Assembly: GCA_043228905.1 (NCBI GenBank)
Contig: JBHGNT010000016.1
Location: forward strand, 15,934,001-15,998,000
DNA length: 64,000 bases
Reading direction: 5' to 3'
Source: Azolla caroliniana
Taxonomy: Eukaryota > Plantae > Polypodiophyta
Part shown: in pieces, positions 1-61,381 of the stretch
How positions within the stretch are numbered: the stretch's first letter is position 1
Layout of the letters: each line of letters begins with the position of its first letter
Notes under the pieces: generated by a model
Seen by the model: the letters and a program-made list of their open reading frames with translations, nothing else
Told to the model about the DNA's origin: nothing
Databases searched by the model: none
Position numbers and translations under genes: made by a program

Positions 1-590
1 TTTCCAAGAAAATCTAAGAACATTAACGAAATCATGGAGATGATTGAACCAATGCTATTGGTTGATGTAGAAAATAATCATATTGATTATGAAATTATGG
101 ATGATCATGCTCATGTTTTTGACTTAACCCCAGAGATGGCTCATCATGGTTTCCATGCTACCCAATGGGATGCTGTAATGCAAGCTAAAGTTGATGTTTT
201 AAATCAAAATAAGATATGGACCTTAGTTCCATGGCCAAAGATAGAAAAGTCTTTTCAAGGAAAGGGGTTGTACCAAGAAAACTGATGCCACCTACATTGA
301 GGATAATGCCTCTATATGTAATCTTCTCTAATTCCTATAGCCTTAACCTTGAACACCATCAACTTGACATTGAAACCACTTTTCTGCATGGAGAACTCAA
401 GGAGATTTATGATGGAGCAACCAACTCATTTTTTAGATCTAGGATTCCTAGTCTATGCTTGCAAATTTCACAAATCATTATATGGTCTAAAATAGTCTCC
501 GCGTATGTGGCATTTCAAATTACACACTTATGTTGTTTGCATCTGCTTCAATCATCTTCAAGCAAAGCCAAATATCTACATTCTAAAATA
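1..590 (+). mobile_element. Highly degenerate Ty1/Copia RT remnant, duplicate of ~48965-49500
   Basis: Frameshifted RT motifs (WDAVMQAKVDVLNQNKIWTLV; HQLDIETTFLHGELKE). Near-identical to sequence downstream of the RLK at 50166, so part of the tandem duplication unit. Confidence 0.75.
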
Positions 591-913
591 AATGTTTTAC
601 ATTTAGCGAAGTATTTTAATTTTAGAAAAATCAATGTGCTCCGTTGTATCCCTTCACCAGAAGAGGTCTGCACATTCTCTAACCTCTAATAAACCATAAC
701 AAACAAAATGAAACATAGAAACGATCAATCTTAGAATCAATACAACACATAATTGACTGTCTCTCTCTTTCTCTCTCTCGTTTATTTCTCACATATTGGA
801 ACAAACTTTTTACAGTTATTATTACACATGAGAAATCCATGGTTATCATATATCGTCCAGGAATCCATAAATGTTGTTAAATAATGTTGAATAGTCCATG
901 ATGATCACATGTT

Positions 914-2838: not shown

Positions 2839-4189
2839 CCTTCTCGTATCATAATCACACCCACATGTGTAATGCTCACTCTCTCTCTCTCTCTCTTGTG
2901 TGTGTCTGTATAACCCACATGTTTGAGCTATAACAAGAACATGGACGACTATCTTGTGTGTGTGTGTCTAATAACCCACATGTTTGAGTGCATAGTAAGA
3001 AGATTGACGACCTCTCCGTCCATACGAACGTTATAGGGGCCAACACGTTTCCTTCTCTTATGGTGCCAAGTACTCGGTGATCACCAACAGTACATATGCT
3101 CCTTCTACGTTGACTAAATGATGAGAAGATGATGAAGTGGATCAAGCCAATATATTATTGTCGTATAGCAAAATCATAGTTTTCTTGCGTTTATGAGCGT
3201 TGACTTTGACAAATGGTTATGATTGGAAATGTTGACAATGGCACAATGATCATAAAGCTTGATGTTTCAACGATCTCCCCACTCTCTTTATACTCTCTTC
3301 TTGTTGTTCTTTATCTCTATACTTCATTGTTCATGAGTTCAAGTGGTCTACAGTGTACACTTCCTACTCTTACAAAACTACAATATACCCAACATTGACT
3401 TCTTAAATATGAGATGCCTCAAGAAACTATTGTATTTCCAATATTGACTTCCAAAAAAGACGATGCCTTAATAACTACCTAATTTCAAGGTTGAACTTGA
3501 CAATTATTGGGAGCCTTAAAGAACTACCTATCACTATCATTGACATTGGAATATGAGATACGTTTTGCACTCAATGAAGAGGATGCCATGCATATCATAC
3601 CCACATTTCGGATTATTACTAAATTCTATGTCACTTCCATGTACGATTGAGTAGAAACTCTATTTAAAGAAAATCTCATCTTTTGTATAAGGTTTTGTTT
3701 ACTTTTCATTCATACATAAGGGGCATATGGGTCAAAGCATGCTACGGTGTACCAAAAAAGTATTGTTTTTGGCCAAGAAAAACACGAGTACTTTTAGTAC
3801 TGTTAGTACTAAGTAATTATAAAAAATATTTTTAAAAATCGAAAAATTTTATAATATTTTTAGGGAGTGGGATGGGGGTAGTACACATTGCATTTAATGG
3901 GGGGAAACAATTGTGAGGTATTCAAGAGTCAGGACTGATTTGGGGGCTATTTCCCCCTCACTTTTAATTTAGCACAACACATTAATTGAATGTGGCGCTT
4001 CTCACCATTTTGGCGCATCCTCTTCCTCCCAACCGAGCCCATCTCTATTTGTCATTCTCTGCATCTCCGGTATTCACAGCACACGAATGTCCCCAATATT
4101 TGGGGTCTTGCCATTCCTTATCTACGAATCAAACCTACGTGGAGATGATCAAGCGTTCTTTGTGTCACACATCTGAGCCATCTTGGCCT

Positions 4190-7625: not shown

Positions 7626-8754
7626 ATAATTATGGTTTAAGTCATGCAATTAATTATGTTTGTTGGCTAACTGTCATGCAAAACACCTAGATACTTCTCA
7701 TTGACAAACATTAGGATGCAATGGAACTACTTCGGGTCTGGACATGGAAAGGGAGAGCATGATGGTGCGGGGGCTATGATCAAGCGTGCTCTTACATTGG
7801 AGCAGTTGGATAATAAAGGTGCTAAGCTACAAAATGCACATGATGTTGTGGAATGCCTCACATGGAAGATGTCAAATGATGGTAAGAATAGATTGTTTAT
7901 TGAGGTTCGTGCTAATGAGGTGGATAGGAGTAAATCATACGGCTGTAAAACCGTGAAAGGGACGCGCAAGACCCATTGTGTTTTACGGTTTAGTCGCAAG
8001 GACACAACACAATTGTTATTCCGCAGTTTATCTTGCTTTTGTTCCATGTGTTTAGATGAAGCTTGGGATGAATGCACCAATCTATCAATTGTGGAGCCAT
8101 GGAAGCTACAAAAGCTAGAGATAGAAGACATCGTGAATATCCAAGAAAACGAACATTCAGACCATATTGTCTACTACAACCAATGTGAGGACTTGGCAAC
8201 ATGATTGGAAATTGGAGATCATTTTTGTTGAGAGACAAGCTCAACATCGGCCGGATCGGCTGAGCAAGCCGAGGACTGGATCGGTTGGGATCGATTGGTT
8301 AGGCCGGACCGGTGCGTAAAATGGATACGTAAACCGGTGCGTAACGAGAGGCCGTATCGGTGCGTAAACCGAAAGGCCGTTAGAGAGATATTCCTCGTAA
8401 GGAATAGTTTTGGGAGTAAGTGTCGAGGCTCATTTATGAGCAGTCAAGTACTGTCAGTACTTGTGTCAGCCCGATTGTCAGGGCTTGTATAAAAGGTTCT
8501 CACTGAGCACGGTGTATGTACACAGAGTTAGTATTTTTTGAATTGAGTTTTTTTTCTGTGTGTTCTCTCTCTGTCTCTCCCATGTATTGTGTATACTCAA
8601 GCTCTCCATTAAACCTGCATGTTTTCTGTGTGTTTGGTTTTCCATTGCTTCCGCACATAATTTTTTACATGGTATCAGAGCGCGAGGGTTGAGAACCTCT
8701 ACAACCAACATAGCTTGAAAGGAAAAACCAACCGATAAGAACAGGTAAAAACCG

Positions 8755-11700
8755 ATGGATAGAGGCATGGCTAGCTCGCTTTCGACGGAGAAGCTCGACA
8801 GAAACAACTACGCATCTTGGTCCTACAAGATGCACCAGTACCTACTCGGACACGGTTACTGGAGCTATGTCGATGGAGCAAATGACACAGCCCCCGATTC
8901 GACCCACAAAGACTTCCCGGCGTGGGAACAATTGGCGAGCAGAGTGCTGTACTGTTTTGCGTCTTGTGTGGGCAAACAACTATTAAGCTACGTTCGGGAT
9001 GCAAAAATGCCGAAGGGTGCGTGGGAAAATCTGAAGAAGATCTTTGCCGCGAGCACCACGGTCAGGAAGCTTTAGCTCCGATAGGAGTTGAGCAACCTAC
9101 GACAACGCGATTTGTCGATGGCTGACTATACCTCAAAGATCAAGGACATATGCGACTGCTTAGCTTCCATCGATGTGAACATCAAGGAAAGCGAGATGGC
9201 CCAGGTCTGTCTCGGGGGTTTGGCGTCAAAGTTCGGAGCATTCCGAACTGTTGTGTGTACACAGGAGAATACGTCGTCGTTTTTCAACTTATAGTCGATG
9301 CTCCTTACAGAAGAGAACCACGCGGGTGCGTCGACAAGCACGCATGCCGACAACAAGATGCTGTACACGGAGGGAGATAGGCCCCGTGGTCGTGGCGGAC
9401 GAGGCGAGTCAGTACGCAATGGAGGCGGCCGACGGGATCAAGGAAGAAGGCATCGAAGTGATGCCGATAGCTATTCCGGACCCTCCGGAAACAGGGGAAG
9501 TCGAGGCGACGAGAACCGGCAAGGGAAATCTGTCGTGGAATGCTAGTACTGTGGCAAGAAAGGCCACAGGGACAGCGAGTGCTGGAAAAAGAGCGCCGAT
9601 TCGGGGAGAACCGGGTTCGGAACAGGTTCCGGACAGACCGACAAAGGAAATCGACAACGATCACACTACACCGAAGGATCCGGAGAAGCCGGAAAAGGGT
9701 CAGTCTTTGTGACGAGACACGAAGCAAACTCCATGAAGAAGATCACCCCGAAGTCGGAGGTGTGGTACGTCGACTCCGGCGCGTCAAATCACATGACGAG
9801 CCATAAGGAGTGGTTCTTGTACCTAGAAAAACCGATGCAACCGGGAGTAGTCGCAACCGGAGACAACACTCCGCATCCGATCGCGAATGTCGGAGAAGTT
9901 CCCCTAAGCCATGTCGGGCAGAAAGGGAAACTCATGAACGTGCTACATGTTCCGACAATCACGAAGAACTTGGTATCGGTCGGACAGATCGTCGACCAAG
10001 AGATGGAGGTCCGGTTTACACACCTCGGGTGCTTCATTGAGGACGAAGGCCGTGTTATTGCGCAAGGGTGCAGAGATGGGAGGATGTTCATCCTCGACTC
10101 TACTGACGGTGGCACCGTAATGTTTGCGAAGGGACAAAAGGTCGAGTTGGACATTGACTTATGGCACAAGCAGTTAGGCCATGTCAACTGCCAGCGGCTT
10201 CAAGACCTGCAATCGAAACAGGTGGTGTTCGGATTGCCCAAATTTAGTGGCCGGAAGGCACAAATTTGTGAAGCCTGCCAGCTTGGGAAGCAACACCGAC
10301 TTCCCTTCCTCAATGAGCGTAACCGGAGCTAGAACAAGCTCGACTTGTTACACTCCGATGTGTGGGGGTCGGCACAAAACGTTAGTCTTGGTGGGAGCCG
10401 ATATTTCGTCTCCTTCATCGACGACTACACGCGGCACACGTGGATCTACCTCATCGACGACTGTTTCCAAGACCTCAAAGGGTTCGTGGAAATGGAAACA
10501 AGAAAAAAGATCAAGTGCCTGCGGTCGAATGGTGGAAAAGAATACTTTTCCGATCAATCCAACGATTATCTACAATAGATGGGAATCTGGTGCGAATTCA
10601 GTTGTAGATATACGCCGGAGCAAAACGGCGTGGCCAAGAGGAAAAATCGGTTGGTTGTGGAAGTGGCATGGGCAATTCTAGAGAAGAAGAGCTTGCCCAA
10701 GTTCTACTGGGCCGAGGCAGTAAGGACCGCGGTATACATCCAGAACCGGATCGGAGACAAAGCGTCGGTGCACGATCTATATTTCGGAACGAAGACGAAC
10801 TTGCGACACTTACGAGTTTTCGGTAGCATTGCATATGTGCATGTGCTGAAGGAGAAACGGAGGAAGCTGGAAACAAAGGCCAAGAAATGTATCTTGGTCG
10901 GTTACTCAGATGAGTAGAAGGGTTATAAGTGTTATAACCTGCGCTCCAAACAAGTGTGCGTGAGCCGCGACGTTGTGTTTGACAAGTTCGCATCCTGGTA
11001 CTTGCCTCCGACTCGGGACCTCACCTCCAATCCGAGTTTTGACGATGAGGTCAGCAAGACTGAGATGCCTCCGGATGAGCCTGAAATAGGGACCCGTGAA
11101 GATAGTCCGATTTCGTTTCGGTTAAGTGGACCGAATGGACGACTGAGTCGGTTCGACCAGTCCGATGAAGAGCCGGCGAGTAGTGGAGACTCAGTTGCGC
11201 ATTCCCCACGCAGGAAGCCGCGGAGACGGCTTACGCTCAAAGAGAAAGGGAAGAAGAAGGTGTCGGATTCTGGCACGGATAGGAACGAGTTCGACTCCGA
11301 GGGAAGCGGTGATGGGTCTTCAAGAGCGAAGTCTGCATCAGCTGAGAAGACCTCGATATCGGGTAATGACCAATTACGCCGATCTACCTGCCAGAAGAAC
11401 CCAGTTGTGCGGTTCGGATACAACGAGTACATGGCGCATCATTATGCGTACATGACCCGTGTAGCGGAAGTGCGTGAGCCGGAGAGCTATGCAGAAGTGG
11501 CTAAGGACACGAATTGGCGCGCCGTGATGGAGGAAGAGATGCACGCATTGGCGGAAAATGAGAGCTGGGACCTGGTTGATGCACCGAAGGGTGTGAAGCC
11601 GATCAGATGTAGGTGGGTGTACAAGGTCAAGTACAACACCGACGGCTCGGTCAACCGATACAAGGCCCGGTTAGTGGCAAAAGGCTACGCACAAAAACAT

Positions 11701-13020
11701 GGCATCGACTACGATGAGACGTTTGCGTTGGTCACGAAGATGACGACCGTCCGTGTTTTGCTCGCGGTAGCTGCGGCAAAGGGGTGGCACTTACATAAGA
11801 TGGATGTAAAGAATGTGTTCCTACAAGGTCAGATTGAGGAACAGGTGTACATGGTACAACCCCCCGGATTTCACTCCGGAACGAACACGTCGGTAGTGTG
11901 CCGTTTGAAGAAGTCCCTTTATGGACTGAAGCAAGCCCCTTTACGGACTGAAGCAAGCCCCGCGTGCCTGGAACGCGAAGATCACACAACAACTGTGTCG
12001 GATGGACTTTGCAACGTCAAAATCGGACCCTTCCCTGTTCATCCGGAAAGGTCGACTCGGTCCGGTCAGTATTTTACTATATGTTGATGACTTGGTCATT
12101 ACCGGCGCCGACCTAGGTGAAATCAACTGCGTGAAGCTCCAACTTGTGGCATCGTTAGACATGAAGGATTTGGGGGATCTTCATTACTTCCTCGGGATCG
12201 AGGTGATCCGCACCCCCGAAGGCATACTGATCAGCCAACGACATTACGTGCTGAGTATGCTCTTCATATTCGGGATGGCAGACTGTAAGTCCGTCTCGAC
12301 TCCTCTGGATAGAACCGTCAAGCTTCGCCCCGATTTTGGAAAGCTATGTGACTCGACGAGGTTCCGACAGATCGTCGAAAGCCTTATATACTTGACCATC
12401 ACTAGACCAGATCTCAACTACCCGGTCGGGGTGATTAGTCAATTCATGGCGCGATCTACCGAGGAGCACCTTCAATGCGCACAACGCGTACTCCGGTATG
12501 TAAGTGGCACTAAGGACAGGGGGCTGCTATATCGGTTCGGTACAGCCCCGCAGTTGATCGGCTACACCGATGTCGACTGGGTCGGCAACGCCGCCGATCG
12601 CCGATCCACGTCTGGATACACGTTCTCTCTTGGGAGTGTCGCGATAGCGTGGAGCAGTAAGAAACAGCCGGTAGTTGCACTATCGAGCACCGAAGCTGAG
12701 TACTGAGGAACGGCTGTCGCGACATGCAAAGCCATATGGTTGAAGTGGCTACTCAAGGACCTGTAAGAGGAGGTGTCCAATCCAACGAGGTCTACTGCGA
12801 ATACCTCAGCAACATCTAGCTCGCGAAGAACCCCGTCTTCCACGCATGGACCAAGCACATTGAGGTGCACTACCATTTTTTCCATGAGCGTGTCCTTTCT
12901 GGTGAAGTCGAACTTCAGTATCTTTCGACGGATCGGCAACACGCCGATATTTTCACCAAGCCTCTTGGTCTCGGGTGCACTTGGGTTGCGTCACCTTGGC
13001 GTGCCGAACTTGAGGGGGAG
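8755..13020 (+). pseudogene. Copia gag-pol with multiple premature stops and frameshifts
   Basis: Gag with zinc knuckle, protease WYVDSGASNHM, integrase, RT ([14 protein letters not shown]), RNase H (SSTEAEY). Stops at ~9073, 9292, 9544, 10330, 10576, 10915, 12704; a ~22-bp duplication causes a frameshift at ~11920-11960. Confidence 0.9.
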
Positions 13021-13799
13021 AGACGTAGACGTCCCAAATGACCACGGAAGGGAGTAGGAAAGGAGCGGAAAAGACCGTGACACAGAGTGGATGACGAATT
13101 CGACTTCGGATCGGCTGAAGAAGCCGAGGGTGGATCCGCGAAAGAGTCCAAAAGCGGACATAAGGGGAGTAGCCGAAAGAAAGAGCCGAAGCCAACCAAG
13201 CATGGGGGAGATGATGCCGTCAAGGACAAGAAGACCGAAGACGAGTTGGAGATAGCCAACTTGGACGAGAGCGAAAACCGGTTGGAGGTAGCCAAGTCGG
13301 TTCGGATGTTCGATTCGGATACACTGAATCAACCGAGGGACAAGCGGAAAAGAAGGAAGTAGGAGAAACGCCAACACCGCAACAGCAAGGGAGTTGTGAA
13401 GGGCCATGGGAGTAGACAAGCCAACCGGAAGGGTCGAAGTGCGCGGAGTCGAACAGGCCGAGGAGCGCTGTCGGGGTAGTTGTGGTTCATGCGGCGAAGT
13501 CGTAGGGATGAAGGTTAAGGAGAGTTGAAGGAACTTAAATTTTAATAAGTCTTGTATGGTGATGTAAGAAAGGTTAAGAATAGCAAGAAGAAGAGTTACG
13601 AATAATGTTTGTGAGAGAGAGAGAGGAGAATAGATAGAAGATAGAGACAATATATGATTCAAGAAGCAAGATAGAAGAAACAAAGTATGATTTAAGAAGC
13701 AAGAGTATTTAATATAAACATGATGTATATTAAAAAGACAATATTTTACCAACTTTACAATCCTTGATCACAAACTGAACCCATTCTCTACCGACCCTT

Positions 13800-13858
13800 A
13801 ATTTGAACCCACGACCTCAACTTCGAAACGAGAGGTTCTCCACCCAATGAGCTAGTCT
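13800..13858 (-). other. tRNA-derived (SINE-head-like) sequence inside the solo LTR
   Basis: Minus strand reads TAGCTCATTGG...GAGGTCGTGGGTTCAAAT: A-box and B-box at tRNA spacing; no acceptor stem. Confidence 0.55.
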
Positions 13859-14114
13859 TCTTTACTTGATTGTATTATTTTCTCAGTGTCTCTTGATTGA
13901 TTGATTACCTTGTTTTCCCCTTTCCCCTCTTAATATAAGTGTTGCCATGCATATGGTAATGTATGGGAGCATGGCATGCATGCAATGCATGAGTTACATG
14001 TAATGCATGATCACCATTTGGCGCTCATGCATTGCATGTGATGAATGATGGCTATGTATGAAAATAGATATGGGATAAGTATAATGATGAAAAATGCATT
14101 CTTAAAATAACGAA

Positions 14115-14310
14115 CCTAGCTTAGTGGTGTATGCTTGGTGCTTGGTATACAAGGTTGAGGGTTCAAGTCCCTCAATTTTACTTAATACAATATATAACTT
14201 CATTCTTATATCATGAAGCACATTTATTACACACTTTTACAAATAAATAGCCTAGCCTAGTGGTATGTACATTGTACTTCGTATATAAGGGTGTGAGTTC
14301 AAGTCTCTCA
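14115..14310 (+). other. Two tandem tRNA-derived Pol III A/B-box units inside the solo LTR
   Basis: TAGCTTAGTGG...TGAGGGTTCAAGTCCCTCA (perfect T-arm hairpin, ~14117-14174) and TAGCCTAGTGG...GAGTTCAAGTCTC (~14253-14310), each in a ~135-bp duplicated unit. Confidence 0.65.
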
Positions 14311-17300
14311 AATATTATTAAATACAACATTTAAGCTCATTTTTATATCGTGAAGCACATTCTTCACGACAGCGCGAGCGAGGCGTGGAGCCAGGAGGAA
14401 CCGGAGTGGTGATTGGTAAGATCCCGAAGAACCTCAAGTTGAGCTTGAGGGGGAGTGTTGAGAGACAAGCTCAACATCGGCTGGATTGGTTGAGCAAGCC
14501 GAGGACCGGATCGGTTAGGCCGGACCGGTGCGTAACAAGAGGCCGTATCGGTGCGTAAACTGAAAGGCCGTTAGAGAGATATTCCTCGTAAGGAATAGTT
14601 TTGGGAGTAAGTGTCGAGGCTCATTTATGAGCAGTCAAGTACTGTTAGTACTTGTGTCAGCCCGATTGTTAGGGCTTGTATAAAAGGTGCTCACTGAGCA
14701 CGGTGTATGTACACAGAGTTAGTATTTTTTGAATTGAGTTTTTTTTCTATGTGTGCTCTCTGTCTCTCCCATGTACTGTGTATACTCAAGCTCTCCATTA
14801 AACCTGTGTGTTTTCTGTGTGTTTGGTTTTCTATTGCTTCCGCACATAATCTTTTACAATTTTGCAGTGCTCAAATCTCCTTAGAATGAAGATTTTGAAG
14901 ACTACTATGTTGTGGTGTGCAAGCAAGGAAATATAATATTGGAAGAAGTCGTGAGGGATGGCTGGGGCAACATGTTCAATGAAGGTGAGTCTGTCATGTA
15001 TGGCAACTACTATGCAAAGTTGCCACAATGCAGGAACACATATGCATTGTTAAAAGATGCACCCATTGCAATTATCTATGTTGATGCCATTATCGCAATC
15101 AAGTTCAAAATGACTCAAGCAAAGCACAATGTTGAGGGATACAACACACTCTAAAAAGTCCCCAAAGGGGTACACGAACACATATTGGGGGAGGTCTCCC
15201 TCTTTAATGCCTAGAATGTCAAGTGTTGTGTCTAATGTAACTTTTGCATGTATTCAAACTCTGACTTACACGTGAAAGGAAATATATCAAAACCGGTTTT
15301 CATATTTATCTTGGGTTTTCTAACAATATTCCTCTTTGGTTTAGATATGTATGTTTCTTTTACATGAAGTGTCAAGTGCTTGGATTCTACGTTAGTATCA
15401 AAGTTAGGAGTTCATATGTATCAAAGTTAAGAGTTCATATGTGTGCCTATAACTCTTTAGTAGTTCATATGTATCATATGTGTGCCTATAACTCTTTAGG
15501 AGTTCATATGTATCAAAGTTAGTAGAATGCATATCAAGTTAGTACTAAATCACTGTCACATGTTTGCATAACAAGTAAACCAGAACAATGTCACGATGAG
15601 GGTAAACAATAATTTAACATTCCTATCAAATTACAGACAACAACCTAGATACAATAAACTTATCATTAGTACTAAAGTTGTGTTAAGAGTTTGCATCCGT
15701 AGACATATGTATTAAAGTAGTGACACTCATCACTCATCACTCATCTTCTCACTATCACATGTTTGCATAACAAGTAAACCAGAACAATGTCACGATGAGG
15801 GTAAACATAACTTAACATTCCTATCAATTACAGACAACAACCTAGATACAATAAACTTATCGTTAGTACTAAAGTTGTGTCACCATGACATGTGTGCATA
15901 ATAAGTAAATTAAAATTGTGTCAAGATGATGGTAATCAATGACTTAGCATTCCTATAAATTAAAACAGTGTCAAGATGATTTCCATCAATGACTTAGTAA
16001 ATTAAAAACTGTGTCAAGATTCGTTAATCAATTACATAAAACGATCAATATACAATAAACTTTGGTTTTAGTTTTTTCTAGATCTTGTAATGCGCCTATT
16101 TTTGGTTTCATTCTTCTCAGATTTCACACCCTTCTTCATCTTAAAACCACGAGGTAGTAAACTACTTAGTGGTAACTCATCATCGGAGGGTGAAGCCAAG
16201 CTGGAGGGAACAATGTGCTCTATTGCAACTGCCTGAGATGCACACACTTCCAAGGAGATGCGGTCGATAGTCTTACCAAAAATCTCTTGGAGGTCATTGG
16301 ACGTGTCATTCTTCAACTTTTCTTGCTCCACTACCACATTATTAGGAGTACTAACATGTTCCTCATCTTCGGTAGTTTCCACTACCACATTATTAGGAGT
16401 ACAAACATCTTCCTCTCCTTGGGTAGACACCACCACCACATTATTAGAGTGCTCCAAGTGCAAGCTACTTGCAGTATTTTGGACAGACACCTCATTCGTA
16501 GTACCACACTCTCCTTCTTGGGTAGCGGCAGGGGTCTCCTTAATGTTACATCCTTGCCCTAGATTAAGGCTGCTTGTGGTGTTTTGGACACACACCTCAT
16601 TCTCTCCTTGGGTCATTTTCACATTCTCTGCTGACTCCATTGCAAAGTTTCTTGTCACCTCAGGCTTTTCACACTCCAGCTCCTCTTTTTTACTAATCTC
16701 ACATTCCTCATGTGTGTTAGCATCTGAGCTAGAATAATCAAGATTGCTCCATAAACTGCCTAAATCATCTGATGGTATTTGTGAATCTACATGCTCTTCT
16801 ACTCCTAAATAACAGTAAAGTGATCCAAGAACAATATCAATTCACATTCTGAAAAAGTGACGGCACCTAGCCAAATGATTAAGGTTAAGGGACAAATGTT
16901 TACCTACTGTTACATCATCATTGTTGCTTGGGATGATCCCAGTTTCAACTTGGGGCTCTTCATCATGCCCTATGTATTAATTAATACACATGTACATTAT
17001 TGTCACGTGAAGTAATATTGTCACGTGAAGTAATATGCTACCATCATGTACCTGGAAGTGAGATAAATTCTTCTTCACATTGTGGCTCTGAATCTGTAAC
17101 TCCATTTTCATTACTCTTTTCTTCCTTGTCTAAAAACAAAAGTATGCAGTATTAGTCTAACTCATCAAGATGACAACAACAACAAGTTTGTGAGAATTTG
17201 TATTACCCACCACAACAATCAACTTTGCATTTTTTCCCCTTTCTGTACAATTTCCTTGCAACATTATGCTTCTTTGTAGGCTCTTTCATAGAAACATAAT

Positions 17301-17512: not shown

Positions 17513-20500
17513 TGTTACACTCAGTGCTCGGCCACAACCGAGGAATAGGATCGACTCACAGAAAACAGGAAATACACAATGCACGAAGACAATAGAGAGA
17601 AGAGTGCACAGGATGTTTTACGTGGAAAACCCTAAATGGGAAAAACCACGGGAGTCCTCAAACTCCAACTATCACTATGAACAGAGATGTACAATGGTGA
17701 AGCTACAAGGCAACAACCTTGAGCTCACTGTCTTCGCCACAAGCGGCGGTAATACACAGAGGCAACGACCTCTTCGTCTCTCTCTCTCTCTCGGCTGCTC
17801 TCTTCACTCTCTTGCAAGCATAAGAGTGGCAATACACAATAATCAACAACTTACAACAGCGCTAAACAGTTTGCCCTAAGTCATATTTATACACATATGA
17901 CTTTCAGGCTATTTACAAATATAGCCTCAAGGGCCCTTGGCAAACATATTCACAAATATGTCCCCGCATCCGGATCTCTCTCCGGGTACATTTGTCATCC
18001 AGCTCCGTAGCCGGGGTCTTCATCATCCGGATCCGGAACCGGGTCCTCATCATCCGGCTCCGGAACCGGGTCTTCATTCCCGATTCCCGGACATCCGACC
18101 ATCCCATCCGGAGGGACCGTAATCCCAACAAACTCCCCCTTCACTTCGGCATGGGATGTCTCTCCAATCCGATCCTCTTCCGGCACGCTTCCAGCTTGTC
18201 GGGTGTGAGCACTTTGGTCAGCATATCTAACCCGTTCTCGTCCGTGTGGATCTTCGTCAGCACGAACTCCTGGTCTTCTATCCTTTCCCGGATCCAGTGA
18301 TATCTTCGCTGGATGTGCTTCGTCCGGGAGTGATAGGCCGCGTTCTTCGCAAGGTGGATGGCACTCTGACTGTCGCAGTAGAGTCGGTACTCCTCCTGCC
18401 GGATACCGAGCTCTCTAATGAAGTCCTTCATCCATATCATTTCCTTGCCGGCTTCAACAGCCGCCATGTACTCCGCCTCCGTGGTTGACAATGCAACCGT
18501 CTTCTGCAGCCTCGACTGCCACGAAACAGCTCCCCCTGCATACGTCATCACATACCCTGATGTGGACCGGCTGGTATCTGCATCAGCCGACATATCCGAA
18601 TCGGTAAAGCCGTCGAGTTCGGGCTTACCGGAGCCGAATCGGAGGCACACGTTTGCCATGCCCTTCAGGTATCGGAGTATCCACTTGGCCGCGTTCCAGT
18701 GTTCTTTGCCGGGATTGCTCATGTACCGGCTCACCACTCCGACTGCATATCCTATGTCCGGTCTTGTACACACCATTGCGTACATCAAGCTTCCGACGGC
18801 AGAGGCGTATGGTACTTTCATCATGTCCTCCTTCTCAGCCTTTGTCTTGGGGCTTTGCTTGCTGGACAACTTGCAGTTTGCCGGGAGGGTTGACCCGACC
18901 GGTCTTGCTTCCGACATGTTGAACCGGTGAAGCACCTTTGTCACGTACTTCTCCTGTGACAGCCACAACTGCTTCTTCCTCCGGTTCCGGATGATGTGCA
19001 TCCCTAGTATTTGCCTTGCCGGACCCACGTCCTTCATTGAGAAGGTTCGGTGAAGCGCTTTCTTCAGCATCCGTATCTTGACCTGGTCCCGTCCGACGAT
19101 CAACATGTCGTCCACGTACAGGAGGAGTATTAGGAAGTCTCCTCCTTCGAACTTCTTCACAAACACGCAGTGATCGGACTGCGTTTTGTGGTACCCTTCG
19201 TCGGTCATGAAAGAGTCGAACTTCCGGTACCATTGCCGGGGAGCCTGCTTCAGTCCGTAAAGGCTCTTCTTCAACCGGCATACCAGGTGCTCCTTCCCTT
19301 TCTTCTCGAATCCTTCCGGTTGCTGCATGTAGATCTCTTCTTCGAGGTCACCGTGAAGGAATGCCGTCTTCACGTCCATCTGTTCTACCTCGAGGTCCAT
19401 GCTTGCCGCTATGCTCAGCACCGTCCGGATGGAGGTCATCTTCACTACCGGGGCAAATATCTCGTCGAAGTCGACGCCCTTCTTCTGCTGGAACCCCTTC
19501 ACCACGATCCTGGCTTTGTATCTCGGGGGGTTGCCGGCATCTCCCGGTTTCAGCTTGAACACCCACTTGTTTCGAAGTGCCCGCTTTCCTTTCGGCAACT
19601 CCACAAGTTCATATGTGTGGTTCTCATGCAGGGAATCCATCTCCTCCTGCATGGCACTTAACCACCTGCGGCTATGGGTGTCAAGCTTTGCTTCTTCAAA
19701 ACTCTCCGGCTCCCCCTCGTCGGTTAGCAGCACGTGCTCTGGTTCCGGAAATCTCCGGGGGGGCCTTCTCTCTCTTAGAGGATATCTCCGTTCCGGAGCT
19801 TCGGTAACCGGCTCCTCCGTTTCCTCTTCATCCGAATCCATTTCGGGATCGGGGCCGGTTCCGGTATCAGTTTCATCTTCCTCGGCCGGTTCTGTTTCTT
19901 CACCGTCTTCGGCCGGATCCTCGAGTGCTAACCGGTCCCTTGCCGATCGGGACTGCTCCTCGTAGAGTTGATCCTCACCGGTCGACTTGGAGCTTTTCAT
20001 CTTCTTCTCCGACACCCAGTCGGCGAGTGTCTTGTCCTCCATGAAGATGATATCACGACTCCGAAATATCTTTTTGTCGACCGGGTCCCATACTCGGTAG
20101 CCGAACTCGTCATCGCTGTAACCGAGGAATATGCATGGCCGGGTCTTTGGATCTAGCTTTCCTCTCCGGTCCTTTGCCACATGCACATATGCGAGACACC
20201 CGAACACCTTCAGATGCCGGTAGGATACTTCCCTACCGGTCCACACTCTCTGCGGCGTGTCTCCGTCCAAAGGTACTGAGGGTGATCTGTTTATCACGTA
20301 TGTCGCCGTCGACATTGCCTCAGCCCAAAACCCCTTGGGTAATTTCGCATGCGCCAGCATACTCCGGACCCTCTCCATTATGGTCCGGTTCATCCTCTCG
20401 GCCAGCCCGTTCAGTTCCGGCGTCTTCGGCACAGTAAACTCGAGCCGGATTCCCTTCGAGCGACATTACTCCTCGAACTGCCCCCGGTATTCCCCTCCGT

Positions 20501-28775: not shown

Positions 28776-31700
28776 TATCGTGTGAATCTTCACATACTAT
28801 GTAAAAAAATAATGAAATAATTATTTTAGATTAGATTTGTAGCTTGTTATAGGGAAAATAGAACTATGATTTATCCCACATAGATAAGAAATTTAAGGCC
28901 TTGGCTATATAAGCACATTGAGATCCCTTATATTTCATTTATGCTAAGTGCACTTTGGCCGTTTTGTCTAGATGGATGAATGTGGCCAAATGCCCAAAAA
29001 CCGATTGGCAATAAAATGGAACTGGCCGGTAAGCAATCTGGAACCGGCCGGAAAGCAAACCAGAAGCTCCGGTAAGCAAACAAGAACCGACCGGTAAGCA
29101 AACCAAAACTGGCCTGTAAGCAATCTGGAATCGGCCGGAAAGCAATCCGGAACCGGTCGATAAACAAACCGGAACTGGTCAGAAAGCAAACTAGAATCGA
29201 CCGTTAAGCAAACTGGAACCGGCCGGTTATCAAATCAAAACCGGCGAAATCGGCAATCGGATGGTGTCGGAAATCGGGCGGATCCGACAATCGGCGACCG
29301 AGCAGAACCGGCGACCGGACGAGGCTAGACGCGGACCGGACAGATTGGATGGGCGGTGATCGAGAAGGAAAAATGATAAGATCATGTCGTTAATTAAAGT
29401 AAAGTAAAGAAAACTAAAGTAAAGGTCATGTGGACGGTCACATGCAACTAAAAGAAAAAGCCATGCAACTAAAAGTAGAGGCCATGCAACTAAAAGTGGA
29501 CATGCAAGTAACATTGAAGGCTATGATCAATGGGGAACTCCAAATAAAAATTCCCTTTTTTTTTGCTACAGTCATCCTCTCTCCATATATATATATATAT
29601 ACTTTTTTTTTTTTTCTTTTCCTTCTTAGCTCTCTTATCTTATCGAAGCCAAAAACCCTGAATTTCCTTACGAAAGTGATACCTCATAATTCCAAATTTT
29701 CCATACGGAAGCTATTGAACTCATAAACCATAATCTCTTATCAAAGCCAAGAAACCCTAATTTTCTATCGAATCCATATCTCAAATTCTTCTAATCTATT
29801 ACTCTAGCAATTTGCATTAGCTAAACTTTTTGTAATCCCAATCTTTGGATTAATTGTAATCTTTCTTTCTATTTGTTAATGAAATTTGTCAATCCTTCTT
29901 ATTTCAGTTAATTCTTAGTACATAAACACACGAATTTGATATCCTCTAGTCAGAGGCCCCGGGGTCCTGCCTCAAGTTCACGTGTCCTCGTCGTATTTTC
30001 GTGACATGTTTGGTGAACCCGACGTGAAACGAGGTGGTAGGAGAATATCAAGTGCGACGATGGCTTCGACAAGTGGAACTCAATGAGAGGAATTAACGAA
30101 AGGCATGGTGTCTGTTGTGGAATACATGCTGAAGGCGAGAGATCGAGAGGCTTTAATCGACAAAGCTGTTGATCGAACGGTGGAGATATCTGGACGATTT
30201 GGTGGCAAGAATATCACGGATTTCCTTGCTACCTATTGGAACAAGAGGTAACAGAGGGATGTGCATGATTTGAAACAAATTTCTAGTTTCAAGCGTGTGG
30301 TGGGACCAGGAATCCGCGAGTGTGTCATAGAGATCCAAAATGAACACGCAACTTGGGCAGAGTTCGAGAAGGCGCTTCTTGTTGAATACATTCTTGAAGA
30401 CGCATCACTGATGACTCGACATACACTGATGATTTGGATCAAGAAGAAAGGAAAGAATCTATGTGCATCGGGAGTATATGCGGAATTCAACTAGAAGTAC
30501 AACCAACTTTCGAGTGTTGATCAACAAGTTCTCGATGGAGATAAAGTTTTGCTATTCCTGAAGGCGGTGGATACAAAAGACCGGCGAGAATTGGGCGGTT
30601 TTTTGGAGGACGAAACGCAACCAAATGGCTTGGTAGCGGACTGGACGGAGGTGAAGAAGGCTTGTAGCCGTCTTGATAAGCGTTGACAATGGCAAGAGGA
30701 AACTGATATGGAGAATCTACAAACATGGAGGAGGAAAGCACCTGCGACGGTCGAGCCTAACAAGCCGATAAACAATTTCGACAAGAAAGCAATGGAGGAC
30801 TCTATAATCGAAGAGCTCTCCAAGAAATTTGAAGCGGTATCGCTGGCCAACTTAAGTCGACGCGGGCCCAAGGGAAAAGAAGCGTATAGATGTGTGTGGT
30901 GTGACAGCTTCGAGCACTCACGAAGGGAATGCGCTGACTTGCAAGACGCGATTCGCAAGAATGTCGTCTATTTGGATGGCAACATGATCCACTCGAACGA
31001 GACCCGGAAGCCACTACAAGTGAACTTCGGAAGAGGCGGGCTGAAAAACATTGTAGAAGAGGAAGATGCAATGCATGTGGAAGCTATGCACTATGCTGCA
31101 TCGACCGGGATATGAGTTGGAAAAGAGAATCTAAAGACGATCAAGCTAGGAGCTGGGTTTTGGCCGACGGTCTTCAAGTGCGAGAAAAAAGGCCAAATTG
31201 ATTCGGATGATCTAAAACATGCTGATCAGAATGTGTGACGAGTTACCGAATGGATAGATTCAGTCGACGAAAACACAAGCTTTGCGGAGGTAGTGTGTGA
31301 CAACTATGAAGCTCTTGTCGAAGAGAAGAGGAAAAGAACCGGTGAAGAAGATGGCATGTCAAAGCGTCCCAACACGAGGAACAAAGGGAAAGAAGGGCAA
31401 CTCCCACCTACGCCACGAAAAGAGGTTGGAGAAACAACCCTAAAGCCTGGTGGATCGAGCCAACCTGCTCGGATGGAAGTCAAAGAATCAATGAAGAAAG
31501 GAAAAGAACGAGCGGCACCGACTTACAAGTTAAGATCAGACATAGAACAAATGACTGACTTGTGGAAGGTCCTTGAGGAGAAGGTTTTAGACAGTCATGT
31601 CGACCTTACTTTGAGAGAACTACTTGGGATCGCGAAGAAGGAGTTCCATGATACTATCGTGAACCTTATTAAAAGGAAGCGGCAACAATCTGATGAAGAG

Positions 31701-34700
31701 GAGGTGAAAACTAGTGCCATAACCATGGAAAGATCGGAAGAGGAGGAAGAAGAAGAAGTGGTGGTGGATAACCATTACTCTCGACCTCATTGGGCAAGAG
31801 TGACAACGGAGACGCCGGTGAAGATCGGGGAGAAGAAAGAAATTGTGGTAGCCTTGATTGGCCATGGCTCGGAGATCAACCTCATGTCGACCGAGTTCTA
31901 CAAGAAAGGAAGATGGACAATTAATACAAACCACAAATGGAAGATTCGAGCGGCGACGAAGGCTACGGAGGACTTGTACGGAGCTTGCCCCAACGTTAAA
32001 GTCACGATCGGGGATGTGGAGATTGATCAACACTTCTTCGTGCAAGACTCGGCTTTGCATCTTGTCATCCTAGGACAACCGTATATAACATCGTCCCGGA
32101 TGGAGACCAAGGTGTTCGATAACGAAGTAGCCTTCGCGCGCGTCAAGAGTCTTGATAGTAAAAGATCTGTTCAATTCCTAACGGTGCGAGCTAATCACGA
32201 AAGGAAGCGAGATATCCTTGGAGGCGAATCCTCGGATTTTTAAAGCGGACTATTGAAGTATGGGGCACGAATAGTCCAAGCAATCATAAGTACCCACAAG
32301 GAAGCAGAGTGCGTGGATTGCAAGGAGAAGCTACATGCGTCACACCTAGCGGCACATGCAAACTAAGACTACTCAACAAGAAGGAAAAGTGTCAGATACA
32401 AGACTTCGAGGAGGTGCTGAAAGAAGAAAGCATAATCGAAAAAGAAGAATCTGTGTCTTATATTCTGGAGGAAGCCTCATTTAACGACACCATCGGCGAA
32501 ATCGAGGAAGTTGTGGACTTGAGCTATCCTCACCATCAACATGTGATTTCGGTTAACTTCATCAACATGTTCGCTATCATCGATGAATATCATCGAGGCA
32601 TCTTGATAGAGGAAGCCAAAGTCAACACAAAATATAAAACCGTGGATAGGAAGGTCAAGCTAGTTGCAGTTCCACTACCGGAAGATAGCTGGCAAAAGAT
32701 GAAGGAGGTTGCAAAAGATCCAAACTTAAGGAACCCAAATACAATTGGTCACGTCTTCACTGAAGAGACGAAGGGAAAGCTATGAGTTGGAAGGGAGGAT
32801 TTCCTCCTTCCTGAAGAGGAGCAAATGTTCCGCGAAATGCTTGAAAGACATGGGAAGGCTTTCACATTTTTCCCACAAGAAATCGGATGTGCTAATCCAA
32901 GGATGGTAGAACCGATGGTGATCTTCACGGTGCCGCATGTGCCTTGGAATTTGAAACCGATACCAGTTCCAAGAGCACACCTACCGAAGCTGATCGAGCT
33001 CTTAAAGGAGAAGGTGAGGATGGGAATTTTGGAACCGTCGAACGCTCTTTATTCTAATAGATGGTTCACGGTACCAAAGAAGAATCGATCGTTGCGATTC
33101 ATTCAAGAGCTTCAACCTATCAACAATGTGACAATTCGGAATGCTGGAATCGGTCCAAATGTGGATGCTACTCCATTGGTGATCTCTACTCTGACTACGA
33201 TCAATTCCAGTTGGCGGTCAACAGTCGTGACATTACAACCATGAGAACTCCTATCAGGTTTTGCGGATGTGTACCTTACCTCAAGGTGCGACAAACTCAG
33301 TGGCTCATATAATGAACACCATGAACAAGGTCTTGAAGGATTGCATCCTGGATATCACGATGCCATTCTTGGATGATATTCTGATAAAAGGATGTTCGGA
33401 TGAAGAGAAGGATGAATCAAAAGATAAGGATGGATGTAGAAAGTTCGTCATGGATCATATGAAAGAGTGCGAGAAGGTGCTCCAAAGGCTCAAAGATGCG
33501 AATTTGACATTTTCGGGAGAAAAATCGGCATTCGGGCAACCAGAGATCTTGGTGGTAGGTCACTTGTGTGGAGCATACGGTCGGAAGCCTTCACCATCCA
33601 AGGTGAATGCAATCCAAGACATGAAAGAAGAATGTGTAACCCAAACGAAGGTTCGAAGGTTCCTTGGAGCATGCGCGTTTTATCATATTTGGATTCCACA
33701 CTACGCCCACATTGCAGAGCCATTATATGGTCTACTAAAGAAGAAGCGGATGTTTGAATGGACGAGCGAGCATACAATCGCCATCCGAAGGCTCAAGAAA
33801 TTATTGATGGAGGCACCTACATTACGGAAAGTGAACTATTCATACGGCAAACCCATTTTTGTGACCGTGGATACTAGTCCAATCAGAATCGGATGGGTTA
33901 TCAACCAAGAAGATGAAGATTGCAACCGATATGCAATTCGGTTTGGCGCGAAAGTGTTAAGTGATAGGCAAAGAAGGTATACCCAAGTGAAGAGGGAGCT
34001 ATGGGGAATCGTCTTGGCAATGAAATCTAATCGTGATTACCTTATTGGAGCAGAAGTCATAATTGAGACAGATTGCCTACCAATTTTGGGTATGATATCT
34101 AGTTGTAATACACCAAATATTGTCATGTTGCGTTGGATTGCATATATCAAATCACTCAACCCAGAGATCCGTCATGTAGCTGCGAAGCGTAATGTCATTG
34201 CAGATATGCTATCACGAGCGAGATACAACGAAAAAGAAGATCAACATTCTAATGAAGAGGATGTTGGCTTGGATTTCTTTACAAGTTCCTACGCTCGGGT
34301 GTTGATGACTTTCATAGAAGAGGATTACGAAGTCGAATTCGTGGAGATCGGGAAATACTTGAGTTCTCTCCAAAAAGATGAGTCATGGTCGATAGAAGAC
34401 TTCCATCGAATTCAAAAGAAGGCATAGAAGTATTTTCTTAAGGATGGAGCTCTTTGGAGGCATGCAAAAAAGAAGAATGGGACTCCAATGAGAGTTGTCT
34501 GCAAGCTAGAAGACCGACAAAAACTACTGTCCGAATTTCATGATAGTGTTTTTGTAGGCCATCGAGGAATATGGGCTACGTTTGCGAAGCTTAAGGAGAA
34601 ATATTGGTGGCCGGGCATCTACAAAGATGTAGCAGCTTAGGTGGAAACATGTAAGGAATGTCAGATGTTTTCGAATATTCGCCATTGAGATGAACTTCAT

Positions 34701-36874
34701 CCGACTTACCCGTTGGCTATGCATTACAAGTGGATGGTGGACATCGTGATGATGCCAATGGGGCGATGGCAGATGAAGTATCTTGTGCTCGCAAGAGAGG
34801 ATCTTACCAATCAAGTTGAAGGGCGAGCATTAAGAACTAAGGAGACATCATCGGTATGCAGATTCCTTCTTGAAGATGTTATTTGCAGATATGGATGAGT
34901 CGGCAAGATAGTGGCTTATAGAGGCGAGCTAGACGCCAATGAAGCTAGAGAATTCTTCTCTAGGATGGGAATCAAATTATCTCTTACCATGGCGTATAAT
35001 CCGGAAGCAAATGGGAAAGTGGAACGTGGCCATGGACCAATTGTGAAGGCTCTAGTGAAAGCTTGCCATGGGAAAATAGGAGAATGGCCACAACTATTGC
35101 CATTTGCACTATGGGCTGATAGGACTACTCACAGCACGGTGACGGTATACATGCCGGCAGAGCTCATATTCGGACAAAAGCCAATAATGCCGATAGAACA
35201 AAGTATTGTTTCATGGTTCGCATTGCCATGGCAAGATGAGATAAGTAGAGAAGATCTTCTAGCATTGAGGATTCCACAGTTGGAGCGGAAGTTGGAAGAT
35301 ATAGATATGGCTAAAGAGCGGCTCAAGAATGCAAGGTTGAAGAACAAGAAAGACTTCGACAAACAACATCGACTTCGTCCGAGGAAAATCGTTGAAGGAG
35401 ATTGGGTGCTGGTCTATGACAATAGCCTAGACAACCAACATAGTACGGCTCAAAAAAATTTCACAACGATGGTTTGGACCATATGTGGTGAAGAAAGTGG
35501 AAGATAATGCAACATATCGTTTAGCAAAACTAGATGGTACACCACTTGCCTTGCCAATTGCTGAGAAAAGAATTAAGATCTTCAAGAGAAGAGATAGAAT
35601 AGAAATTGGATTCCAAGCTTTTGACAATTCTATCTTGAGCATCGACGAAAAAGTATAGTAATCAAATTTAGTGGAGCCTCACCAAAATTGGCACATGTCG
35701 GTGGATGTGCAGGTTTGGTGGGGTTGAATGTCGTATGAATCTTCACACACTATGTAAAAAAATAATGAAATAATTATTTTAGATTAGATTAGTAGCTTGA
35801 TTTATCCCACATAGATAGAAAATTTAAGGCCCTGGCTATATAAGCACATTGAGATCCCTTATTTTTCATTTGTGCTAAGAGCACTTTGGCCACTTTGTCT
35901 AGATGGATGAATGTGGCCAAATTCCCAAAACCGATTGGCAATAAAATTGAACAGGCCGGTAAGCAATCCGGAACCGGTAGGAAAGCAAACCAGAACCGGT
36001 AGGAAAGCAAACCAGAACCGATCAGTAAGCAAACCAGAACCGATAGAAAAGCAAACTGGAACCGGCTGGAAAGCAAACTGGAACCGGCGAAATCAGCAAT
36101 CGGATGGTGTCAGAAACCGCGCGGATCCGACAATCGGCGACTGGGTGGAACCGGTGATCGACGAAACCGGCGACCGGACGAGACTAGACACGGACTAGCC
36201 AGATTGGATGGGCGGCGATCAAGACGGACAGATGATAAGATCATGTTGCTAATTAAAGTAAAGTAAAGAAAACTAAAGTAAAGGTCATGTGGACTGTCAC
36301 ATGCAACTAAAAGAAAAAGCCATGCAACTAAAAATGGATGCAACTAAAAGTAGAGGCCATGCAACTAAAAGTGGACATGCAAGTAACATTGAAGGCTATG
36401 ATCAACGGGGAACTCCAGATAAAATTCCATTTTCTTTTCCTACACTCATCCTCTCTCCATAAATTTTATTTTTTTTATTTTTTTTATTTTCCTTCTTAGC
36501 TCTTATCTTATTGAAGCTAAAAACCCTGAATTTCCTTATCGAAGCAATAACTCATAATTCCAAAATTTCCATCCGGAAGTTATTCAACTCATAAACCATA
36601 ATCTCTTATCAAAGCCAAAAAACCATAATTTTCTATCGAATCCATATCTCAAATTCTTCTAATCTATTACTCTAGCAATCTCCATTAGCTAAAAAAATTG
36701 TAATCCCAATCTTTGGATTAATTGTAATCTTTCTTTCTATTTGTTAATGAAATTTGTCAATCTTTCTTATTTCGGTTAATTCTTAGAACATAAACACACG
36801 AATTTGATATCCTTTGGTCAGAGGCCCCGGGGTACTGCCTCAAGTTCACGTGTCCTCGTCGTATTTTCGCGACA
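28776..36874 (+). mobile_element. Full-length Ty3/Gypsy retrotransposon (non-chromovirus, Phygy/Selgy-like), decayed
   Basis: LTRs 28776-30006 and 35729-36874 (T(G/A)TCG...GACA); 4-bp TSD ACGT; PBS TGGTGAACCCGACGTGA 30011-30027 (complement of plant tRNA-Trp 3' end). Gag CVWCDSFEHSRREC, PR, RT LPQGATNS/FLDD, RNase H, integrase. The lineage name is tentative. Confidence 0.92.
30060..35655 (+). pseudogene. Gypsy gag-PR and RT-RH-INT coding region with stops and frameshifts
   Basis: ORF fragments 30261-32243 (gag, PR) and 32309-35507 (RT, RH, INT) in Gypsy order. Confidence 0.9.
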
Positions 36875-53465: not shown

Positions 53466-53509
53466 CTGCCTCTCATATCATGATTCATAATCACACCCAC
53501 ATGTGTAAT

Positions 53510-61349: not shown

Positions 61350-61381
<32 letters not shown>

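What the first reader, a model, noticed from the sequence alone, without database searches (positions are those of the whole stretch)
13469..14371. Solo LTR carrying three tRNA-derived Pol III promoter units
Seen: a 903-bp TGTCG..CGACA insert with a GCGC TSD contains two tandem + strand units and one - strand unit. Each has an A-box, an anticodon-like arm and a T-arm/B-box (one is a perfect TGAGGG-TTCAAGT-CCCTCA hairpin), but no acceptor stem. Known: Cassandra TRIMs carry 5S-derived Pol III promoters in their LTRs, and tRNA-derived LTR promoters have been reported in some non-autonomous LTR groups. Inference: a Gypsy-related family using several bidirectional tRNA-like modules as promoters or TFIIIC-binding insulators.
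Basis: partly seen in the sequence, partly recalled or inferred. Interest (0 to 1): 0.7.

Follow-up and report, generated by a model that had tools for sequence, protein, structure and literature searches.

The report
Gypsy LTR carrying three tRNA relics
This is a leftover end-repeat of an abundant plant jumping gene whose family carries three worn pieces of tRNA genes pointing both ways; they are likely inherited passengers, not the promoter that copies the element, which makes it a variant of a design described in 2024.

Summary
The 903-bp TG..CA insert with a GCGC duplication sits in a Copia 3' UTR, and empty sites occur in 4 of 4 runs. It holds the window's only three A-box/B-box units. 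Other copies show a sharp end, flanks ending in an NCGN-type motif and, in 2 of 4 runs, a primer site matching the neighbouring 8.1-kb Gypsy. So it is a minus-strand solo LTR of Phygy type (4-bp NCGN TSD). The units belong to the family and are not private SINE insertions. Units A and B are antisense in U3 and arose by duplication of the LTR's first 136 bp; unit C is sense and unrelated outside the boxes. T-runs follow every unit within 67-126 nt, so Pol III should not make the genomic RNA. It fails Helenus/TRIM membership. Selection on the boxes is inconclusive, and expression is untested. Most likely these are captured tRNA heads riding a Pol II LTR; a selected TFIIIC or short-RNA role stays open (0.25). 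The scan noted tRNA-bearing solo LTRs in other genomes, none with this sequence. New variant of a known kind; interest 0.42.

The parts
13469..14371 (-). Solo LTR, 903 bp, of a Phygy-type Ty3/gypsy family (5' end at 14371, 3' end at 13469)
   Evidence: TG..CA ends; sharp family boundary at 13469 in 4 of 4 runs; primer-site loose ends on that side in 2 of 4 runs; 5' 60 bp resemble the neighbour Gypsy LTR's 5' end (34 of 2000 shuffles)
13465..13468 (.). Left target-site duplication GCGC (fits NCGN)
   Evidence: empty site
14372..14375 (.). Right target-site duplication GCGC
14110..14174 (+). Unit A: tRNA-derived head, A box 14117-14127, B box 14160-14170, perfect T-arm 14156-14174; antisense to the LTR, in U3; T4 run at 14176
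   Evidence: (17.4 bits)
14246..14310 (+). Unit B: tandem paralogue of A, A box 14253-14263, B box 14296-14306; antisense to the LTR; T5 run at 14340
   Evidence: (15.6 bits)
14100..14371 (.). Tandem duplication of two 136-bp units (102 of 137 columns identical) that includes the LTR's own 5' terminus; the inner copy of the terminus is degenerate
13799..13861 (-). Unit C: A box from 13854, B box 13809-13799; sense to the LTR, 83 bp after the TATA-like box; unrelated to A/B outside the boxes; T5 run at 13736
   Evidence: not detected by the Rfam tRNA model
13925..13937 (-). TATA-like box followed by a G-run; likely Pol II core promoter (inferred; other TATA-like words occur at 14347 and 13716)
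13969..14039 (.). RY-motif (CATGCA) cluster forming a hairpin with perfect 15-bp arms, upstream of the TATA-like box
   Evidence: 8 motifs in 106 bp; 78 in the whole window
13469..13770 (-). Pyrimidine-rich R/U5-like segment ending in CA
   Evidence: composition
8226..14858 (+). Host Copia element (LTRs 8226-8669 and 14456-14858, ATTTT TSD, Met-type PBS, RVT_2); the insert lies in its 3' UTR about 75 bp before the PPT
28776..36874 (+). Neighbouring full-length Gypsy of the same type (8,099 bp, ACGT TSD, same PBS after a 4-nt spacer), used for comparison; it carries no A/B-box units

Best explanation
The insert is a minus-strand solo LTR of an abundant Gypsy family, likely of the Phygy type, whose copies carry three tRNA-derived A-box/B-box units that likely ride along as passengers of an element predicted to be transcribed by Pol II. 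Inferred history: a tRNA-gene head lacking its acceptor stem was captured in antisense about 65 bp inside U3, by a SINE-like or tailless retrocopy insertion at an A/T-rich site or by a reverse-transcriptase switch onto a packaged tRNA. It was then duplicated together with the first 136 bp of the LTR (units A, B). A second, unrelated head was captured in sense after the TATA-like box (unit C). All were copied into many loci by ordinary tRNA-primed reverse transcription and integration at NCGN sites. One copy landed in a Copia 3' UTR and would have been reduced to a solo LTR by LTR-LTR recombination. If Pol III still fires at the boxes it would give RNAs of about 70, 95 and 125 nt that end at the next T-run, never the genomic RNA. 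Shown: ends, TSD, empty site, family-wide units, orientation, primer site next to this LTR end, T-runs. Inferred: lineage name, capture route, Pol II start, passenger status.
For: Boundary at 13469 with unrelated flanks (agreement 0.41-0.47; 20, 29, 14 and 15 contigs) whose consensus ends ACGT in 4 of 4 runs and 4 organism labels. Loose ends before 13474/13475 in X1 and X6 (3 contigs each) read on the minus strand as CA + 4 nt + a site matching the neighbour Gypsy's PBS at 17 of 18 and 16 of 18 letters (compared by eye). Phygy is listed with a 4-bp NCGN TSD (100%), tRNA-Trp PBS (81%) and 7.7-10 kb length (PMC6317226 supplement); the neighbour is 8,099 bp with an ACGT TSD. Single contigs link unit A to B (X15 records 13-14, X6 record 31, X3 record 22), B to the LTR end (X1 record 5) and U5-side sequence to unit C's B box (X6 record 30). 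At 13800 and 14296, where this copy departs from the B-box pattern, 94-99.8% of laid depth in 4 of 4 runs carries the pattern-matching letter. The first T4+ run lies at nt 67, 95 and 126; the neighbour Gypsy has 35 T4+ runs. C is unrelated to A/B outside the boxes (843-1694 of 2000 shuffles reach the score). The neighbour of the same type has no units, so this type of element can do without them. Box conservation between A and B is not exceptional: 19 of 22 vs 83 of 115, p 0.13; 7 of 84 mask positions, the true one included, reach 15 of 16.
Against: Two independent captures in one 900-bp LTR, in a window where no other unit occurs in 63 kb, placed divergently around the TATA/RY core, is more than a neutral passenger needs. 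Promoter-defining positions are 15 of 16 identical between A and B vs 87 of 121 elsewhere (p 0.048; 0.008 if 14296 is counted by the family majority). At 14137 most family depth (64-99%) carries the letter that pairs in the anticodon-like stem. The PBS-bearing contigs align only to the last ~30 bp, which may be shared by sister subfamilies, so it is inferred, not shown, that full-length copies carry all three units. No internal region of this family was seen, so autonomy and phylogeny are unknown.
Confidence: 0.55

Rival explanations
1. The units are selected accessory Pol III modules. TFIIIC/Pol III bound on both sides of the Pol II core would shield it from silencing, or the units would make short RNAs, as foamy-virus U3 Pol III cassettes do, while Pol II makes the genome.
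For: Divergent geometry around the TATA/RY core; two independent captures and one duplication; pattern-matching B boxes in most family depth; nearby T-run terminators; a TATA-like word about 30 nt before A and CAA just before B and C, like the plant tRNA upstream signature (PMC3082873, abstract only). Precedent: the BFV U3 cassette matters for replication (PMC7693620, passages).
Against: The shifted-mask control is not significant. Upstream words and T-runs are cheap in 35% GC DNA. The neighbour Gypsy lacks units. One contig per run joins 13708 to 13965 and skips unit C in 4 of 4 runs (short sides of 24-27 nt). The stems are too short for a foamy-type precursor.
Confidence: 0.25
2. The antisense units in U3 of the genomic RNA pair with a host tRNA and act as a second primer-binding segment that bridges the RNA ends, as in the Ty3 bipartite PBS.
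For: A and B are antisense and lie in U3, where the Ty3 3' PBS segment pairs with the T and D arms of its primer (PMC5371799, passages). A comparable HIV-1 U3-R tRNA-like sequence is recalled, not read (one search gave a listing only).
Against: The units do not match the primer defined by the PBS: 6 of 18 letters each over the primer's last 18 nt. They keep their own T-stem. Unit C is in the other orientation.
Confidence: 0.08
3. A Helenus/Cassandra-type element in which a unit (C) is the Pol III promoter for the element's own RNA.
For: Boxes fit the Helenus motifs TRGCY..YGG and GGTTC (PMC10886601); C is sense.
Against: T5 at nt 126 after C. The LTR is 903 bp, against a longest Helenus LTR of 323 bp and a longest element of 1263 bp. 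TSD is 4 bp, against 5 bp for plant Helenus. Two units are antisense.
Confidence: 0.07
4. The units are private SINE insertions in this copy or chance motifs, or the insert is a TIR DNA transposon (MITE/Ginger-like) and not an LTR.
For: Sub-threshold tRNA scores; an imperfect 25-nt inverted repeat at the ends.
Against: Units are covered and linked by contigs in 4 of 4 runs; a primer site adjoins the end in other copies; motif shuffles give 1 of 5000.
Confidence: 0.05

Closest known systems
Phygy clade, non-chromovirus Ty3/gypsy (Neumann et al. 2019, PMC6317226; passages, section 9 and supplement rows read)
   Same: TG..CA LTR, 4-bp NCGN target duplication, primer site of the same sequence as the window's 8.1-kb Gypsy that has all listed Phygy traits.
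   Different: Phygy was described from Physcomitrella patens only, and the parts read mention no tRNA-like modules in its LTRs. The interior of this family was not seen.
Helenus / TRIMp3 (Kojima 2024, PMC10886601; main text parts 1-4 of 6 and supplement passages read)
   Same: tRNA-derived A and B boxes inside an LTR, no functional tRNA, solo LTRs occur. The paper also says that 'not a few' Repbase LTRs hold tRNA-like parts but follows up only TRIMs.
   Different: Helenus elements are 311-1263 bp, with LTRs up to 323 bp. The only plant family (Selaginella) has a 120-bp LTR with one sense unit and a 5-bp TSD. Here the LTR is 903 bp with three units of two origins, two antisense, each followed by a T-run, and a Gypsy-type primer site.
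Cassandra TRIM (PMC7215508, passages read; described in PMC10886601)
   Same: Small-RNA-gene-derived Pol III promoter boxes in a plant LTR.
   Different: 5S-derived, single, sense, and shown to transcribe the element; here tRNA-derived, multiple, and predicted unable to transcribe the element.
Foamy-virus U3 Pol III miRNA cassette (BFV; PMC7693620, passages read)
   Same: A Pol III unit in U3 of a Pol II-driven LTR that yields short RNA apart from the genome; the functional analogue for the rival reading.
   Different: Long dumbbell hairpins with shown expression and function; here short tRNA-like arms, both orientations, expression untested.
Ty3 bipartite PBS (PMC5371799, passages read)
   Same: tRNA-complementary sequence in U3 of a Gypsy RNA.
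   Different: The Ty3 segment matches its primer tRNA; these units match the primer's last 18 nt at only 6 of 18.

Membership tests
Phygy (Ty3/gypsy) | 4-bp TSD with NCGN preference | tested here: met
   GCGC here; flank consensus ends ACGT in 4 of 4 runs; neighbour ACGT; the single site alone also allows a 5-bp reading
Phygy (Ty3/gypsy) | TG..CA LTR followed by a full-tRNA PBS in complete copies | tested here: met
   Loose ends in X1 and X6, 3 contigs each; not among the rows shown for X15 and X16 (46 rows hidden)
Phygy (Ty3/gypsy) | PBS is tRNA-Trp | tested here: inconclusive
   The PBS complement is an abundant CCA-ended 18-nt plant small RNA mapped to gypsy (PMC5846777 Table 3). The Trp isotype is recalled; 0 of 31 viral loci with the motif held a tRNA
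Phygy (Ty3/gypsy) | Polyprotein domains group with Phygy; element 7.7-10 kb | not testable with these tools
   No interior of this family was obtained and no REXdb reference is held. The neighbour is 8,099 bp, and 19 of 120 RT hits carry a species name, all Riccia or Adiantum
Helenus / TRIMp3 | tRNA-like sequence with A box (TRGCY..YGG) and B box (GGTTC) in the LTR | tested here: met
   unit B of this copy differs at one letter of GGTTC, where most family depth matches
Helenus / TRIMp3 | TRIM size (about 1 kb in all, short LTRs) | tested here: not met
   The LTR alone is 903 bp, so a complete element is at least 1.8 kb
Helenus / TRIMp3 | 5-bp TSD in plant and fungal families | tested here: not met
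   4 bp preferred; animal Helenus has 4 bp
Helenus / TRIMp3 | Pol III unit able to transcribe the element | tested here: not met
   Sequence test only: 2 of 3 units antisense; T4-T5 within 67-126 nt of all 3. Not tested on RNA
Helenus / TRIMp3 | Non-coding interior with PBS and PPT only | not testable with these tools
   No genome held; contigs give only 30 letters past the end
tRNA gene | Cloverleaf with acceptor stem, above model cut-off | tested here: not met
   ARAGORN 0; 17.4 and 15.6 bits vs 29; acceptor pairs 3, 4, 1 of 7
tRNA-derived SINE | Dispersed copies with own tail and TSD outside the LTR | tested here: inconclusive
   0 units in the other 63 kb; no tail or TSD seen around units; whole genome not held
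Retrozyme | Self-cleaving ribozyme in the LTR | tested here: not met
   No ribozyme family among 9 Rfam matches at E<=10 in 13000-15000
TIR DNA transposon (MITE, Ginger-like) | TIR-bounded unit with no primer site beyond its end | tested here: not met
   A primer site adjoins the end in other copies

The most novel reading that the evidence does not exclude
A non-seed-plant Gypsy family has twice captured tRNA promoters and keeps them, facing outward on both sides of its Pol II promoter, as a self-encoded TFIIIC/Pol III shield or short-RNA cassette against silencing. This would be the first plant retrotransposon to use Pol III machinery as an accessory instead of as its promoter, spread over many loci as portable boundary elements.
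Probability: 0.25. Interest if true: 0.72.

Novelty: new variant of a known kind. Interest (0 to 1): 0.42.

Why it matters
If the units are passengers, the value is modest. It extends tRNA-bearing LTRs from miniature TRIMs to a long Gypsy LTR, adds a multi-unit two-way layout, suggests Phygy-type elements beyond Physcomitrella, and flags a source of tRNA pseudogene calls. If they are selected, the family is a natural high-copy test of whether TFIIIC/Pol III boxes act as chromatin boundaries in plants and whether a retrotransposon exploits them against silencing. Copies with and without individual units would serve as built-in controls.

Tried and rejected
No whole genome is held, so copies could not be aligned end to end. 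No second copy lies in the window. Exact-pattern scans gave only chance hits with no similarity beyond the pattern: 7 of 7 metagenome loci, 20 of 20 viral loci and 2 of 2 GTDB loci. No viral-contig relative of the neighbour's RT was found. No RNA holder listed; this says nothing on expression. Holes in contig cover, which prove nothing: X15 has low depth over unit C (155-1296 vs 2,465-23,937 in other insert bins), and no contig covers 13447-13458 joined to the insert in the 4 runs. Variable unit number was considered: joints 14364->14231/14235, 14309->14171 and 14093->14245 fit one or three units but equally fit two-unit copies with more similar units, so it is not claimed. An apparent compensatory pair in unit B's T-stem was dropped because most family depth does not carry it. 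Naming the source tRNA failed: the anticodon-like loops read TGG (A) and TCG (B, C), a likeness to tRNA-Arg is recalled only, and no plant tRNA set was available. Confirming the primer isotype with viral loci failed (0 of 31). The protein Atlas gave no answer. The kinase search named no close relative: the 9 best hits carry no species name and named hits are 30-46% identical. No ORF above 99 codons lies in the insert. Of 20 runs holding part of the insert, 5 were laid (X1, X3, X6, X15, X16). Only the best-supported rows of each table were shown (40 of 279 variant places and 24 of 1826 loose ends; 24 of 70 loose ends).
Full report
Observation. The insert spans 13469-14371, begins TGTCG, ends CGACA and is flanked by GCGC. 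It lies in the 3' UTR of a Copia element (8226-14858; LTRs 387 of 403 aligned columns identical; ATTTT TSD; RVT_2 domains). Nesting in 3' UTRs is the commonest pattern in plants (PMC6911290, passages). Contigs of 4 of 4 public runs join 13463 to 14371 and skip 907 bases, which is the empty site. A pattern for A box plus B box at tRNA spacing hits 3 times in 64 kb, all in the insert. Shuffles gave one hit in 1 of 5000 inserts and in 4 of 100 windows (the pattern was fitted after seeing the units). Units A and B reach 17.4 and 15.6 bits on the Rfam tRNA model, below the 29-bit cut-off; unit C is not detected; ARAGORN finds nothing. Acceptor pairing is 3, 4 and 1 of 7. The units are real tRNA-like promoter relics, strongest in A and reduced almost to the two boxes in C.

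What the insert is. Laying four runs under four organism labels on the 13469 end gave a sharp boundary. Flanks were unrelated (agreement 0.41-0.47 over 20, 29, 14 and 15 contigs), but their consensus ended ACGT in 4 of 4. In X1 and X6, three contigs each continue, on the minus strand, as CA, four letters, and a site matching the primer site of the window's full-length Gypsy at 17 of 18 and 16 of 18 letters (read by eye). So the insert is an LTR on the minus strand. This agrees with a pyrimidine-rich 3' third, a TATA-like box at 13937 and an RY-motif cluster upstream of it, and with a weak likeness of its first 60 bp to the neighbour's LTR start (34 of 2000 shuffles; the 3' ends show none, 1988 of 2000). 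The neighbour (28776-36874, 8,099 bp) has the same kind of termini and an ACGT TSD that can only be 4 bp. Phygy is tabulated with a 4-bp NCGN TSD, 81% tRNA-Trp primers and 7.7-10 kb (PMC6317226 supplement). The primer-site complement is printed as an abundant CCA-ended plant small RNA mapped to gypsy elements (PMC5846777 Table 3); that it is tRNA-Trp is recalled. Of 120 relatives of the neighbour's RT, 19 carry a species name, all liverwort or fern, so the host is likely a non-seed plant. I call the family Phygy-type, not Phygy, because its interior was not seen.

The units belong to the family. In one search contigs cover all 30 bins in 4 of 4 runs. Single contigs link A to B, B to the LTR end, and the U5-side sequence to C's B box. 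At 13800 and 14296, where this copy departs from the B-box pattern, 94-99.8% of laid depth carries the pattern-matching letter in every run. At 14137, 64-99% carries the letter that pairs in A's anticodon-like stem. This rejects private SINE insertions. A and B are halves of a 136-bp tandem duplication that includes the LTR's own 5' terminus. C shares nothing with them outside the boxes (843-1694 of 2000 shuffles reach the score, against 0 of 2000 for A vs B), so there were likely two captures. One contig per run skips unit C (13708 to 13965, short sides), and loose ends behind 14049 in 5 and 9 contigs suggest a sister family with a different upstream U3. Not every LTR with this U5 end need carry all units.

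How it works. Relative to the element RNA, A and B are antisense in U3 and C is sense, 83 bp after the TATA-like box. The first run of four or more T lies 67, 95 and 126 nt from each unit's start, and the neighbour Gypsy has 35 such runs. Pol III stops at T-runs (established knowledge), so none of the units should produce the genomic RNA, unlike Cassandra. The units are also not copies of the primer tRNA's end (6 of 18 each), which weakens a Ty3-like second primer segment (PMC5371799, passages). That leaves passengers or selected accessory modules. For selection: two captures in a region with no other unit, divergent placement around the Pol II core, 15 of 16 promoter positions identical between A and B against 87 of 121 elsewhere (p 0.048; 0.008 counting 14296 by majority), and plant-type upstream words (PMC3082873, abstract). 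Against: whole boxes give p 0.13, 7 of 84 mask positions (the true one included) do as well as the true mask, intact boxes are why the units were noticed, and the neighbour of the same type has none. I commit to passengers at 0.55 and give the accessory reading 0.25. Its precedent is the foamy-virus U3 Pol III cassette (PMC7693620, passages).

Comparison and novelty. tRNA-like sequence in LTRs is known. Helenus TRIMs carry it, and the same paper notes that many Repbase LTRs do (PMC10886601, parts 1-4 of 6 and supplement passages). This element fails Helenus membership on size, TSD and predicted read-through; it resembles Helenus only in holding the boxes. Searches, and passages of a 2026 sugar-beet survey (PMC13570524), showed no report of several two-way tRNA-derived units in a long plant Gypsy LTR. 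The library lacks most subscription papers; Repbase entries and the element-level supplement of PMC6317226 were not seen and could hold such a case. Earlier notes of this scan describe tRNA-bearing solo LTRs in other genomes, none with this sequence and none of this family among the rows shown for this genome; they are unchecked leads.

Verdict. A real, family-wide feature, and a new variant of a known kind. Interest 0.42.

Noticed in passing
window 28776-36874: Full-length Gypsy with all tabulated Phygy traits (8,099 bp, ACGT TSD, 4-nt spacer before the PBS, DUF4100 in the first ORF; LTRs 1024 of 1109 columns identical; the 5' LTR begins TA instead of TG). Phygy was described from Physcomitrella only.
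   Followed up: partly
window 13969-14049: RY-motif hairpin segment with about 2-3 times the laid depth of nearby insert bins in 4 of 4 runs; 5 and 9 contigs leave it at 14049 into a shared different sequence, suggesting a promoter module shared with a sister LTR family.
   Followed up: partly
window 30011-30028: The complement of this primer site is the sequence catalogued as miR894 in plant small-RNA papers (PMC5846777 Table 3); probably a tRNA 3' fragment able to target this lineage.
   Followed up: partly
window 17513-22890: Second Copia element on the minus strand, LTRs 94.6% identical, CAGAC TSD, nearly intact gag-pol broken by in-frame stops.
   Followed up: no
window 40909-44175 and 50166-53477: Two paralogous G-type lectin receptor kinase loci (83.6% over 3.9 kb), each with the lectin and kinase parts separated by an in-frame stop; further fragments at 6-3386. 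No named close relative.
   Followed up: partly
window 25993-27528 and 58154-59715: A 1.5-kb repeat pair (90%) with internal repeats that resemble the host Copia LTR in inverted orientation (70-80%).
   Followed up: no
window 60200-62430: About 2 kb of strand-skewed TACA-rich low-complexity sequence with 117- and 183-bp higher-order repeats.
   Followed up: no
window 13426-14431: Besides the exact empty site, contigs join 13426-13442 to 14428-14431, which suggests Copia subfamilies with a shorter 3' UTR.
   Followed up: no
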